From a virus (Duplodnaviria; Heunggongvirae; Uroviricota; Caudoviricetes): a DNA stretch of 46,959 nucleotides. The position numbers and the translations under genes are program-made. This document shows positions 19,741-21,844 of this stretch, piece after piece (position 1 is the stretch's first letter; each line of letters starts with the position of its first letter). The notes beneath the pieces are model-generated. The model worked only from the letters and a program-made list of their open reading frames with translations. It had not been told where the DNA came from and ran no database searches. Where the stretch lies: positions 1-46,959 of the IMG/VR virus record IMGVR_UViG_2681813454_000002; one strand, given 5' to 3'.

Positions 19741-19956
19741 ATGTACCAGATGGAAAAAATCACAACAGGTGTGTCATACACCACGTCAGCGGTGGGAACG
19801 GGCTACTGGTTCCTGCAGTTGCTGGACAGGGTTTCCCCGTCTCAGTGGGCGGCAATAGGCGTGCTGGGGAGTCTGCTGTTTGGGCTGCTGACATATCTGA
19901 CTAACCTGTATTTCAAAATCAGAGAGGACCGGCGTAAGGCGGCGCGGGGAGAGTAA
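19741..19956 (+). CDS. S: Phage-21-type pinholin (class II holin, 71 aa with a dual-start motif)
   Basis: MYQMEK.. dual start; ..[51 protein letters not shown] resembles S21 as recalled. Confidence 0.8.
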
Positions 19957-19960
19957 AGCG

Positions 19961-20305
19961 ATGAAGAAAAAATACGAACTGGTTGTTAAAGGGATAAATA
20001 ATTACCCGGATAAGATTACTGTTACTGTGGCACTGGAAATTGGTGGGTATCCGTCACTGTTGTTGCCAGATGTGGCGATTAGTCTTGACCGTACTGAAGA
20101 TGCCACGCTGGAGTTTTACGAAGCTGAGGCGAAAAAGCAGGCGAAGCAGTTTTTCATGGATGTTGCTGCCGGGTTATGTGAAGGGGATGGTCCGTTGCCG
20201 GAAAAGCGCCCCGTAATTTTAGAGGCGCAGGATGTGTTGATAACCTACAGAGGAAAACTACCGGGAATAATTACTGGTTCTCTGAAGACTCCACCGCTGG
20301 CCTGA
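19961..20305 (+). CDS. Hypothetical protein (114 aa) inserted between holin and endolysin
   Basis: RBS GGAGAG before the ATG. Confidence 0.55.
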   Translation: MKKKYELVVKGINNYPDKITVTVALEIGGYPSLLLPDVAISLDRTEDATLEFYEAEAKKQAKQFFMDVAAGLCEGDGPLPEKRPVILEAQDVLITYRGKLPGIITGSLKTPPLA

Positions 20306-20355
20306 AGACTTAACATATCCAGGGATTTGAAATCGATAAACCCTGATAAATATCC

Positions 20356-20889
20356 ATGAACACCAAAATCAAATACGGCCTGTCGGCTGCCGTTCTGGCG
20401 CTGATTGCCGCAGGTGCGCCTGCGCCTGAAATCCTCGACCAGTTTCTGGATGAAAAGGAAGGTAACCACACCACGGCATACCGTGATGGCGCGGGTATCT
20501 GGACCATCTGCCGCGGTGCCATCCTGGTGGATAGTAAACCTGTCGTCCCGGGCATGAAGTTGTCGAAGGAAAAATGCGACCGGGTTAACGCCATTGAGCG
20601 TGATAAGGCGCTGGCATGGGTGGAGAAAAACATCAGAGTGCCATTGAGTGAACCCCAGAAAGCGGGGATCGCGTCATTCTGTCCGTACAACATTGGTCCC
20701 GGTAAGTGTTTCCCGTCGACGTTTTATAAACGAATTAATGCAGGTGATCGCAGGGGAGCGTGTGAGGCGATTCGCTGGTGGATTAAGGACGGTGGCAGAG
20801 ACTGCCGTATCCGCTCAAATAACTGTTATGGTCAGGTATCCCGTCGTGACCAGGAGAGCGCGCTGGCGTGCTGGGGAATCGACAGATAA
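20356..20889 (+). CDS. R: SAR endolysin (lysozyme with an N-terminal signal-anchor-release domain)
   Basis: N-terminal hydrophobic Gly/Ala-rich segment GLSAAVLALIAAGA followed by a lysozyme-like domain; paired with a pinholin. Confidence 0.8.
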   Translation: MNTKIKYGLSAAVLALIAAGAPAPEILDQFLDEKEGNHTTAYRDGAGIWTICRGAILVDSKPVVPGMKLSKEKCDRVNAIERDKALAWVEKNIRVPLSEPQKAGIASFCPYNIGPGKCFPSTFYKRINAGDRRGACEAIRWWIKDGGRDCRIRSNNCYGQVSRRDQESALACWGIDR

Positions 20890-21045
20890 GCAGAATATTT
20901 TGCTGAAAAATAAGGTATGGCCACGCGGGCGGATAACACGAAATCCTGCGAACTGGCGAAACGTAAGTGAATAAAAGTAAAAACCCCGTTTGTTGGTACC
21001 AAGCGGGGTTTTGTGTTTCTGACCTTGAGTAAGGCAAGGGAGAAC

Positions 21046-21228
21046 ATGGCGAAGTATAAACGAATTCTGTTGAGGTTGACTATGAAAAATGGCCTTGAAC
21101 TGAAAGCGCCTGTAACTGATGACATCAGCAGAGCACTGGCTTTTGCCATTAAGTGGGTGGCGGTCGGTGTTGCTGTGTCCCCGATGCTGTATGGGCTGGC
21201 AAAACTGGTCATTGCGTTGAAATCGTGA
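21046..21228 (+). CDS. Hypothetical small membrane protein (60 aa)
   Basis: RBS GGGAGA before the ATG at 21046; C-terminal hydrophobic segment. Confidence 0.35.
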
Positions 21229-21242
21229 AGGGAGGATTAAGC

Positions 21243-21374
21243 ATGTCAGACAAACTCATAACGCTGGCGAAGATCCTCTGTGTAATTGTCGGCATTTCAT
21301 TTTCACTAATGCTGGTTGCTCTTTTTCTTTCCATGGCCTGGATGATGTTGTCTTCGTCGGGGTTGCTGGGGTGA
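21243..21374 (+). CDS. Hypothetical small membrane protein (43 aa)
   Basis: RBS GGGAGGA before the ATG at 21243; hydrophobic core; stop overlaps the Rz start. Confidence 0.35.
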
Positions 21375-21844
21375 ACATAAACCGAATGCTTTCCGCGTTT
21401 ATCGTTATTCTGCTGGTGGCCTGTGGTGCGCTGTGGATGGCAACAGACCATTACCGTGATAACGCGATTACCTACAAAGCGCAGCGCGATAACAAAGCCA
21501 GTGAACTGAAGCTGGCGAACGCAACCATTACTGATATGCAGGTGCGCCAGCGCGATGTTGCTGCGCTCGATGCAAAATACTCGAGGGAATTATCCGATGC
21601 GAGAGCTGAAAATGAAACTCTGCGCGCTGATGTTGCCGCTGGTCGTAAGCGCCTGCGGATCAACGCCACCTGTCCAGGCTCCGTGCGTGAAGCCCCCACC
21701 ACCTCCGGCGTGGATAATGCAACCGGCCCCCAACTGGCAGACACCGTTACACGGGATTATTTCACCCTCAGAGAGCGGCTGATGACGATGCACAAGCAAC
21801 TGGAAGGGGCACAGGACTATATCCGCACTCAGTGCCTGAAATAA
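21371..21844 (+). CDS. Rz: Spanin inner-membrane subunit Rz (i-spanin)
   Basis: N-terminal TM segment and coiled-coil domain; contains the embedded Rz1 ORF in the +1 frame; start may be the ATG at 21386. Confidence 0.8.
21597..21782 (+). CDS. Rz1: Spanin outer-membrane lipoprotein Rz1 (o-spanin), embedded in Rz
   Basis: RBS GAGGGA; signal peptide with lipobox VSAC; Pro-rich mature region; lies wholly inside Rz in another frame. Confidence 0.65.

What the first reader, a model, noticed from the sequence alone, without database searches (positions are those of the whole stretch)
19741..21844. Phage-21-type lysis cassette with extra genes inserted
The cassette is a pinholin with a dual-start motif (MYQMEK), a SAR endolysin, and Rz with Rz1 embedded in the +1 frame (lipobox VSAC). 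A 114-aa unknown gene (19961-20305) sits between holin and endolysin, and two small membrane-like ORFs with good RBSs (21046-21228 and 21243-21374) sit between the endolysin and Rz.
Basis: partly seen in the sequence, partly recalled or inferred. Interest (0 to 1): 0.4.

Follow-up and report, generated by a model that had tools for sequence, protein, structure and literature searches.

The report
Ordinary lambdoid prophage lysis cassette
This is a standard, already-annotated lysis gene cluster of an E. coli lambdoid prophage; its three extra genes are real, conserved and common, but their functions are still unknown.

Summary
The cluster is an S21-family class II holin, a DUF1327/YdfR gene, a SAR-type lysozyme, two small membrane-protein genes, and lambda-family Rz with Rz1 embedded in the +1 frame. 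It lies in a normal lambdoid late region, between a Q antiterminator/tRNA cluster and the Nu1/gpA terminase genes.

It is not new. RefSeq annotates the same gene order at 97-98% identity, and 1,707 of 5,426 complete E. coli genomes cover at least 80% of it. The "unknown" 114-aa gene is a YdfR homolog, which E. coli K-12 prophage Qin also carries between its holin and endolysin.

"Phage-21-type" is only partly right. The holin and spanins fit. The endolysin is RrrQ/Stx-phage type: 88% identical to RrrQ and 29% to the R21 homolog RrrD. The dual start (MYQM) lacks the extra basic residue that defines the S21-71 antiholin.

The small ORFs are real genes under purifying selection. The one modestly new observation is that both small-protein families sit immediately 5' of Rz, whatever holin or endolysin the cassette uses, in Escherichia and Salmonella. 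That hints at a spanin-linked role, which is untested.

The parts
19673..19701 (+). Strong terminator-like hairpin followed by a U-run, about 40 nt upstream of S. It is presumably read through by Q-modified RNA polymerase.
   Evidence: Terminator scan. RNA fold -17 kcal/mol, z = -5.5 against shuffles.
19741..19956 (+). S: class II holin of the P21 holin S family (predicted pinholin), 71 aa, with Met1 and Met4 starts (MYQMEK).
   Evidence: PF04971 9e-33. 80% identical to EssD and 79% to EssQ. G40/G43/S44/G48 lie in TMD2 (read from the sequence). dN/dS 0.13 across 38 alleles.
19961..20305 (+). ydfR-like gene (DUF1327), 114 aa, cytoplasmic. It starts 4 nt after the S stop and uses the GGGGAGAG Shine-Dalgarno that serves R in phages where S and R are adjacent.
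   Evidence: PF07041 2.5e-45. Annotated 'YdfR family protein' in RefSeq. Residues 1-74 are 46% identical to K-12 YdfR. Junction comparison. AlphaFold2 model has an N-terminal beta-beta-beta-alpha domain and a disordered tail.
20356..20889 (+). R: SAR-type lysozyme of the RrrQ/Stx-phage type, 177 aa, with an E35-D44-T50 catalytic triad. No Shine-Dalgarno is evident upstream.
   Evidence: PF00959. 88% identical to RrrQ and 29% to RrrD. Aligns to R21 structures 3HDE/3HDF and to RrrD 4ZPU. The N-terminal segment LSAAVLALIAAGAPAPEIL has KD 1.74, is 47% G/A/S/T, and has no Cys. dN/dS 0.09.
20980..21012 (+). Terminator-like hairpin between R and orf60. It follows about 95 nt of R 3' flank that is conserved across all architectures compared.
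   Evidence: RNA fold -18.9 kcal/mol, z = -4.7. Phages with an ant gene carry a different hairpin at the same place.
21046..21228 (+). orf60: small protein with a basic N-terminus and a C-terminal transmembrane segment ('family B', core motif [13 protein letters not shown]).
   Evidence: phrog_1115, phrog_4493 and phrog_3246. RefSeq 'hypothetical protein'. Homologs in E. coli, E. marmotae and Salmonella enterica. dN/dS 0.15-0.23 at dS 0.6-0.9 against Salmonella copies. Sits directly 5' of Rz in three other cassette types.
21243..21374 (+). orf43: single-pass small membrane protein ('family A', [24 protein letters not shown]...). Its TGA stop overlaps the Rz GTG as GTGA.
   Evidence: phrog_4906. 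KD peak 2.89. 276 phage records and 412 IMG/VR hits. Open at the same length in all 91 loci collected. dN/dS 0.46 against 0.70 and 1.38 off-frame. Lies next to Rz in Stx phages as S-R-ant-orf43-Rz.
21371..21844 (+). Rz: i-spanin of the lambda family with an N-terminal transmembrane domain. The start is the GTG at 21371, coupled to the orf43 stop, or the ATG at 21386 that RefSeq uses.
   Evidence: PF03245 7e-47. 72% identical to RzpD. KD 2.46 for the N-terminal TMD, Cys at 101 and 155. Start contexts.
21597..21782 (+). Rz1: o-spanin lipoprotein embedded in the +1 frame of Rz. Lipobox LVVSA-C20, Gly at +2, proline-rich mature part.
   Evidence: PF06085 4e-20. 70% identical to RzoD. Frame check.

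Best explanation
Window 19741-21844 is the lysis module of the late operon of a lambdoid, Stx-phage-like but stx-less, E. coli prophage.

Mechanism of the core, inferred from the well-studied phage 21 and lambda homologs:
1. Q-antiterminated late transcription reads through the hairpins at 19673 and 20980.
2. The class II holin accumulates in the inner membrane and forms small 'pinholes' that collapse the membrane potential.
3. This releases the membrane-tethered SAR lysozyme, which refolds and cuts the peptidoglycan.
4. The Rz/Rz1 spanin complex then fuses the inner and outer membranes.

The three extra genes are conserved accessory cargo at two junctions that many lambdoid phages fill differently.
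- ydfR (DUF1327) sits at the S/R junction, as in K-12 Qin. It encodes a cytoplasmic protein. The N-terminal domain of its K-12 homolog binds the catalytic half of RNase E and co-purifies with RNA. The most likely role is modulating RNA turnover late in infection, not envelope disruption.
- orf60 and orf43 are tiny inner-membrane proteins. No promoter of their own was detected, so they are probably made only from the late transcript. They always sit immediately 5' of Rz, and orf43 is translationally coupled to it. I infer that they modulate the membrane steps of lysis, most likely the spanin step. No function has been demonstrated.
For: - Family assignments for all core parts.
- Catalytic triad and fold family shared with R21 and RrrD.
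- SAR-like N-terminus, Rz transmembrane domain, Rz1 lipobox and +1 frame.
- Lambdoid context: Q antiterminator, tRNAs, Nu1/gpA terminase.
- Same gene order in RefSeq at 98.4% identity, and in 1,707 of 5,426 genomes at >=80% coverage. The orf60-orf43 block is in 1,034 genomes.
- About 99% of Stx phages have a predicted pinholin plus SAR endolysin (PMC8136144).
- ydfR lies between holin and endolysin in K-12 Qin. K-12 YdfR residues 1-72 bind the RNase E N-terminal domain by bacterial two-hybrid and pull-down, and pull down RNA (PMC13232886). The window protein is 46% identical over that domain.
- Small ORFs: strong ribosome-binding sites and a GTGA stop/start overlap, purifying selection, and always-open reading frames.
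- Position 5' of Rz holds in cassettes with S21-type, HP1-type and lambda-S-type holins and with lysozyme or GH19 endolysins.
- No plus-strand sigma-70-like promoter between R and Rz.
Against: - No experiment on these alleles. The pinholin, SAR and spanin behaviour is extrapolated from homologs.
- The Met1 extension lacks the basic residue that gives S21-71 its antiholin character. Met1 is not conserved in 6 of 81 holins. The 'dual-start regulation' step may therefore not operate.
- R has no recognisable Shine-Dalgarno.
- The RNase E link for YdfR comes from a 46%-identical homolog. Over-expressing that homolog changed few transcripts.
- The adjacency of orf60/orf43 to Rz could be plain physical linkage. 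Identical orf43 pairs with a different Rz transmembrane-domain type in L053.
- The locus sample was selected by the presence of orf43, so it is biased.
Confidence: 0.85

Rival explanations
1. The extra genes are 'morons' unrelated to lysis, for example host-modulating, exclusion or lysogenic-conversion cargo. On this view they simply occupy junctions in the late operon that tolerate insertions, as ant does between R and Rz in Stx phages.
For: - The S/R gap takes 14 different lengths (4 to 1,263 nt) with varied content, and the R/Rz gap holds ant, orf60/orf43 or other small ORFs.
- Strong terminator-like hairpins flank the units.
- The only experimental lead for YdfR is RNase E and RNA binding, which is not an envelope function.
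- Mosaic breakpoints fall at these junctions.
Against: - No plus-strand promoter was detected in front of orf60/orf43, so independent expression in the lysogen is not supported.
- orf43 overlaps the Rz start.
- Families A and B keep the position immediately 5' of Rz across unrelated holin and endolysin types and two genera.
- No match to known defence families.
Confidence: 0.3
2. orf43, and perhaps orf60, matter mainly as translated leaders that deliver ribosomes to Rz by termination-reinitiation. The peptides themselves would be largely dispensable.
For: - The GTGA stop/start overlap is the same device that couples rrrD to rzpD in DLP12.
- The ATG at 21386 has no Shine-Dalgarno.
- The C-terminal half of orf43 is variable, and its dN/dS is only moderately low at 0.46.
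Against: - orf60 is under clear amino-acid constraint between E. coli and Salmonella (dN/dS 0.15-0.23).
- The N-terminal 24 residues of orf43 are nearly invariant.
- In Stx-type and Salmonella cassettes Rz has its own Shine-Dalgarno 8-19 nt after the small ORF, yet the small ORF is still kept.
Confidence: 0.15
3. The small ORFs are not genes. They would be chance ORFs in spacer DNA that annotation pipelines have propagated.
For: They are very short and hydrophobic, have no Pfam family, and are annotated only as hypothetical proteins.
Against: - Strong ribosome-binding sites.
- The frame is intact in all 91 loci.
- In-frame dN/dS is below the off-frame controls.
- Cross-genus dN/dS is 0.15-0.23 at dS up to 0.9.
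- Each matches its own PHROG family.
Confidence: 0.03

Closest known systems
Qin cryptic prophage lysis region of E. coli K-12 (essQ-ydfR-rrrQ-rzpQ/rzoQ)
   Same: The order holin, DUF1327 gene, SAR-type lysozyme is the same. The holin is 79% and the endolysin 88% identical. The YdfR N-terminal domain is 46% identical.
   Different: Qin uses a different spanin family (DUF2514 RzpQ with RzoQ) abutting rrrQ, and has no orf60 or orf43. Its holin starts MKSM, and its YdfR has a different C-terminal tail.
Phage 21 / DLP12 lysis cassette (S21/essD - R21/rrrD - Rz/Rz1)
   Same: The holin family is the same (PF04971, 80% identical to EssD). Rz and Rz1 belong to the same family (72% and 70% identical) with Rz1 embedded in the +1 frame. 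The endolysin has the same fold family and the same E35/D44/T50 triad.
   Different: DLP12 is compact, with overlapping stops and starts and no accessory genes. The endolysin is only 29% identical. The dual start there carries Lys2.
Stx-converting phage lysis cassettes (933W, P27, Min27, BP-4795 type: S-R-ant-small ORF-Rz/Rz1)
   Same: The MYQMEK holin is nearly identical (99%) and the R type is the same (92%). An orf43 homolog (65-79% identical) sits immediately 5' of Rz. The roughly 95-nt R 3' flank is conserved.
   Different: Those phages carry ant where the window has orf60. They usually lack ydfR, with S and R 4 nt apart, and they carry stx and nanS-p upstream.
RefSeq prophages with the identical layout (e.g. 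NZ_OZ040091, E. coli O104:H4 2011C-3493; phages PhiR12_1 to PhiR12_5)
   Same: The order holin, YdfR, lysozyme, 60-aa ORF, 43-aa ORF, Rz is the same at 94-98% nucleotide identity.
   Different: Only allelic differences, plus in some records 500-870 extra bases between ydfR and R.

Membership tests
P21 holin S family (class II holin, pinholin) | Sequence membership in PF04971 | tested here: met
   E = 9e-33, covering 63 of 64 profile positions. 80% identical to EssD.
P21 holin S family (class II holin, pinholin) | Two transmembrane domains: a weakly hydrophobic G/A/S/T-rich TMD1 that can leave the membrane, and a TMD2 with a G40xxxS44xxxG48 face | tested here: met
   Only TMD2 ([19 protein letters not shown]) passes the KD 1.0 cut-off. 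TMD1 ([22 protein letters not shown]) is G/S/T-rich and weaker. G40, S44 and G48 are present in the sequence. The significance of that motif is recalled from the S21 literature and was not tested here.
P21 holin S family (class II holin, pinholin) | Dual-start motif in which the longer product carries an extra positively charged residue (antiholin S21-71) | tested here: not met
   Met1 and Met4 are present, but the extension is Met-Tyr-Gln with no Lys or Arg. S21-type holins have MKSM. The requirement for the extra charge is stated in PMC9636201. Met1 is Ile in 6 of 81 alleles.
P21 holin S family (class II holin, pinholin) | Forms small heptameric holes that depolarise the membrane but do not release a cytoplasmic endolysin | not testable with these tools
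   Needs physiology and biochemistry.
SAR endolysin, R21 type | T4-lysozyme-like domain with an E-x8-D-x5-T catalytic triad | tested here: met
   PF00959. E35, D44 and T50 align with R21 (3HDE) and RrrD (4ZPU).
SAR endolysin, R21 type | N-terminal weakly hydrophobic, G/A/S/T-rich signal-anchor-release domain | tested here: met
   Residues 9-27, LSAAVLALIAAGAPAPEIL, have KD 1.74 and are 47% G/A/S/T.
SAR endolysin, R21 type | No regulatory Cys in the SAR domain (this separates the R21 type from the P1 Lyz disulfide-isomerisation type) | tested here: met
   The cysteines are at 52, 74, 109, 118, 136, 150, 157 and 172. None lies in residues 1-30.
SAR endolysin, R21 type | Sec-dependent export, membrane tethering, and release and activation on depolarisation | not testable with these tools
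   Inferred from homology only.
Lambda-family embedded two-component spanin (Rz/Rz1) | i-spanin: PF03245 with an N-terminal transmembrane domain and a periplasmic coiled-coil domain | tested here: met
   E = 7e-47. TMD KD 2.46. 72% identical to RzpD.
Lambda-family embedded two-component spanin (Rz/Rz1) | o-spanin gene lies wholly inside Rz in the +1 frame, with a lipobox and a non-Asp residue at +2 | tested here: met
   21597-21782 lies inside 21371-21844 with frame offset 1. LVVSA-C20-G21. PF06085 E = 4e-20.
DUF1327 / YdfR family | Sequence membership in PF07041 | tested here: met
   E = 2.5e-45. RefSeq names the 100%-identical protein 'YdfR family protein'.
DUF1327 / YdfR family | Binding to the RNase E catalytic domain, the property reported for K-12 YdfR residues 1-72 | not testable with these tools
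   The only support is 46% identity over that domain and PMC13232886.
Known anti-phage defence systems (PADLOC) | HMM match of YdfR, orf60 or orf43 to any defence-system protein | tested here: not met
   No hits at E <= 0.1.

The most novel reading that the evidence does not exclude
orf60 (family B) and orf43 (family A) may represent an unrecognised class of spanin-associated small inner-membrane proteins, for example regulators or assembly factors acting on the Rz transmembrane domain. That would explain why one or both are kept immediately 5' of Rz in Escherichia and Salmonella prophages, whether the cassette uses an S21-type, HP1-type or lambda-S-type holin and a lysozyme or GH19 endolysin. 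No spanin regulator other than the peptidoglycan meshwork itself appeared in the papers I searched.
Probability: 0.2. Interest if true: 0.5.

Novelty: already known. Interest (0 to 1): 0.2.

Why it matters
As a cassette it matters little. It is one of the commonest prophage lysis modules in E. coli and is already annotated.

Its small residual value is as a pointer. Three conserved, selected genes with no assigned role sit inside one of the best-studied gene clusters in phage biology, in more than a thousand sequenced E. coli genomes. Two leads are cheap to test with existing lambda and phage 21 genetics: a possible RNase E link for YdfR, and an Rz-linked position for the two small membrane proteins.

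It is also a reminder that the MYQM "dual start" of Stx-type holins lacks the feature that makes S21-71 an antiholin.

Tried and rejected
- **Rfam on 17500-23500:** no RNA family inside the cassette.
- **PADLOC defence models:** no hit for YdfR, orf60 or orf43.
- **NCBIfam:** nothing useful for the accessory genes.
- **sdi-like RNA structure at the S start:** the fold is not significant (z = -1.6).
- **Co-adaptation of orf43 with the Rz transmembrane domain:** the two are co-inherited while the periplasmic part of Rz recombines, but L053 pairs identical orf43 with the other TMD type. Physical linkage explains the pattern equally well.
- **One-genome-per-species scan with a family-B alignment:** nothing was found. 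Only two peptide patterns were used, so this shows narrow distribution at best.
- **Literature:** the spanin survey (PMC6139136) and two Stx-phage comparative papers (PMC8136144, PMC10462455) say nothing about the small ORFs.
- **Minus-strand ORFs overlapping R and orf60 (20310-20693, 20832-21212):** treated as spurious, because the selection signal lies in the plus-strand frames.
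Full report
**Observation.**
- S: 19741-19956, 71 aa, starting MYQMEK.
- A 114-aa ORF: 19961-20305.
- R: 20356-20889, 177 aa.
- A 60-aa ORF: 21046-21228.
- A 43-aa ORF: 21243-21374.
- Rz: from the GTG at 21371 or the ATG at 21386, ending at 21844.
- Rz1: 21597-21782, in the +1 frame, with LVVSA-C as lipobox.

Pfam assigns S to the P21 holin family (9e-33), the 114-aa ORF to DUF1327 (2.5e-45), R to phage lysozyme, Rz to PF03245 and Rz1 to PF06085. PHROGs agrees and places the two small ORFs in families of unknown function: phrog_1115/4493/3246 for orf60 and phrog_4906 for orf43. Start contexts confirm strong ribosome-binding sites before both small ORFs.

**Context.** The window is a lambdoid prophage. 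The region runs in this order:
- Q antiterminator (15528-16349)
- DNA methylase
- three tRNAs (18020-18269)
- sRNA-like elements
- a DUF1737 ORF
- the lysis cassette
- a minus-strand DUF3950 gene
- Nu1/gpA terminase

**Is it known?** Yes.
- Megablast finds the 2.4-kb region in 375 phage records.
- It is in 4,360 of 5,426 complete E. coli genomes, and 1,707 of them cover at least 80% of it.
- RefSeq annotates the colinear order 'class II holin, YdfR family protein, lysozyme, hypothetical, hypothetical, lysis protein' at 98.4% identity. The same order appears in O104:H4 and in phages PhiR12_x.
- The orf60-orf43 block alone is present at >=80% coverage in 1,034 genomes.
- About 99% of Stx phages have a predicted pinholin plus SAR endolysin, and Rz is one of their most conserved genes (PMC8136144).

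**Comparison with the reference cassettes.**
- DLP12, the phage-21-like prophage of K-12, is compact: essD-rrrD-rzpD/rzoD with overlapping stops and starts.
- Qin has essQ-ydfR-rrrQ-rzpQ, so a DUF1327 gene between holin and endolysin is already a K-12 arrangement.
- BLASTP shows the window cassette is a mosaic. The holin is 80% identical to EssD. The endolysin is 88% identical to RrrQ but only 29% to RrrD (R21 type). Rz is 72% identical to RzpD and Rz1 70% to RzoD. YdfR residues 1-74 are 46% identical to K-12 YdfR.
- "Phage-21-type" therefore fits the holin and spanins, not the endolysin allele.
- The endolysin still belongs to the R21 structural family. It aligns to 3HDE/3HDF and 4ZPU with E35/D44/T50 in register. 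Its N-terminus is weakly hydrophobic, 47% G/A/S/T and free of Cys, as expected for an R21-type SAR domain.

**The dual start.** Met1 and Met4 are present, but the extension is Met-Tyr-Gln. S21-71 and lambda S107 are antiholins because of an additional N-terminal positive charge (PMC9636201). EssD and EssQ have MKSM. Among 81 holins in the collected loci, 70 start MYQMEK and 6 have Ile in place of Met1. The RNA fold around the starts is not significant (z = -1.6). The motif is real as sequence, but its antiholin meaning is doubtful.

**The extra genes are real.** Nei-Gojobori estimates over the collected loci gave the following:

| Gene | In-frame dN/dS | Off-frame controls |
|---|---|---|
| S | 0.13 | 1.64, 3.35 |
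| R | 0.09 | 3.29, 1.77 |
| orf60 | 0.29 | 1.73, 0.45 |
| orf43 | 0.46 | 0.70, 1.38 |
| YdfR | 0.52 | 0.95, 0.67 |

orf43 is open at the same length in all 91 loci. With Salmonella copies, orf60 gives dS 0.6-0.9, dN 0.12-0.15 and dN/dS 0.15-0.23.

**Two variable junctions.**
- Across 80 IMG/VR loci that encode an orf43 98-100% identical to the window's, the R-orf60-orf43-Rz spacing is essentially fixed. The S-to-R gap takes 14 lengths, from 4 to 1,263 nt, with or without ydfR.
- ydfR starts 4 nt after the S stop and uses the GGGGAGAG Shine-Dalgarno that serves R in phages where S and R are adjacent. R is left with a conserved leader that has no Shine-Dalgarno.
- After R, about 95 nt are conserved in every architecture compared. 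A strong terminator-like hairpin follows (window 20980-21012, z = -4.7). Phages with ant carry a different hairpin at the same place.
- Between that hairpin and Rz, phages carry orf60+orf43 (the window), ant+orf43-like (P27, P8983, Lyz12581Vzw, Min27), orf43+38-aa+28-aa ORFs (vB_EcoS-783R2), or combinations of these.

**Two small-protein families tied to Rz.**
- Family A (orf43) is confined to Escherichia and Shigella. In every case examined it lies just 5' of Rz, or is separated from it only by family-B ORFs.
- Family B (orf60) shares the core motif RA(L/M)AFAI(K/R). It also occurs as a 38-aa form, a 28-aa form and a 57-aa form.
- In Salmonella prophages the orf60 homolog lies 10-19 nt 5' of Rz in three cassette types: HP1-type holin + lysozyme, S21-type holin + lysozyme + Ant-like protein, and lambda-S-type holin + GH19 endolysin.
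- The small genes therefore track the spanin gene, not the holin or endolysin type.
- In the window the orf43 stop overlaps an Rz GTG as GTGA, the same device that couples rrrD to rzpD in DLP12. The ATG that RefSeq uses for Rz has no Shine-Dalgarno.
- No plus-strand sigma-70-like promoter lies between R and Rz.
- Identical orf43 travels with the same Rz transmembrane domain while the periplasmic part of Rz falls to 47% identity. L053 breaks that pairing, so simple proximity is an adequate explanation.

**YdfR.**
- K-12 YdfR residues 1-72 interact with the catalytic half of RNase E by two-hybrid and pull-down. The protein co-purifies with DNase-resistant nucleic acid. Over-expression changes few transcripts (PMC13232886).
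- The AlphaFold2 model of the window protein has a moderately confident beta-beta-beta-alpha N-terminal domain (residues 1-73) and a disordered tail.
- Family members differ mainly in the C-terminal tail (114 to 183 aa).

**Mechanism.**
- Inferred from family membership plus established phage 21 and lambda biology: pinholin, then SAR endolysin, then spanin.
- Inferred from context: Q-dependent read-through of the two hairpins.
- Inferred from a 46%-identical homolog: YdfR acts in the cytoplasm on RNase E or RNA.
- Inferred from gene position only: orf60 and orf43 act at the inner membrane in the spanin or timing step.

**Verdict.** The only mildly new point is the Rz-linked position of two families of tiny membrane proteins, which can be tested by simple phage genetics.

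Noticed in passing
window 18345-18535, 18813-19022 (and a weak third at 18574-18747), + strand: Two strong copies of the Rfam sRNA family STnc100 (136 and 161 bits; gathering score 47) plus a weak third copy. They lie between the tRNA cluster and the holin, the position where Stx phages carry stx. The stretch 18270-19240 has no long ORF but holds many terminator-like hairpins.
   Followed up: no
window 18020-18269: A cluster of three tRNA genes (Met-CAT, Arg-TCG, Arg-TCT) downstream of Q and a DNA methylase, as in Stx phages.
   Followed up: no
window 20306-20355 and 19945-19963: R has no recognisable Shine-Dalgarno. ydfR has taken over the GGGGAGAG site in the 3' end of S, which serves R in phages where S and R are adjacent. 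The R leader (…ccgataaaycctgataaatatcc) is conserved wherever cargo sits between S and R.
   Followed up: partly
window 20890-20985: About 95 nt after the R stop are conserved in all cassette architectures compared. They contain no conserved ORF and no Rfam hit. Their function is unknown.
   Followed up: partly
L008 (phage phiSTEC1575-Stx2k) 2480-2837: A 57-aa family-B protein is directly followed by a 60-aa lipoprotein (lipobox LLVGC, phrog_7528, unknown function). The pair lies downstream of an M15 peptidase endolysin, and no Rz-like gene was detected there. This may be an unusual outer-membrane-disruption pair.
   Followed up: partly
L002 2297-2383 and L053 2560-2646: An unannotated 28-aa ORF (MSAELIRAMAFAIRIVAIAVLVWAIRWW, family B core) ends at a TGATATG junction with the Rz start.
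   Followed up: partly
six IMG/VR loci among L010-L089: The holin Met1 codon is replaced by Ile (IHQMEKI), so only the Met4 start remains in those alleles.
   Followed up: no
window 19244-19471 (+) and 22468-22653 (-): A DUF1737 ORF lies just upstream of S. A DUF3950 (YnfO/YlcI-like) gene on the opposite strand lies between Rz and the terminase genes. There is no bor gene downstream of Rz in this prophage.
   Followed up: no
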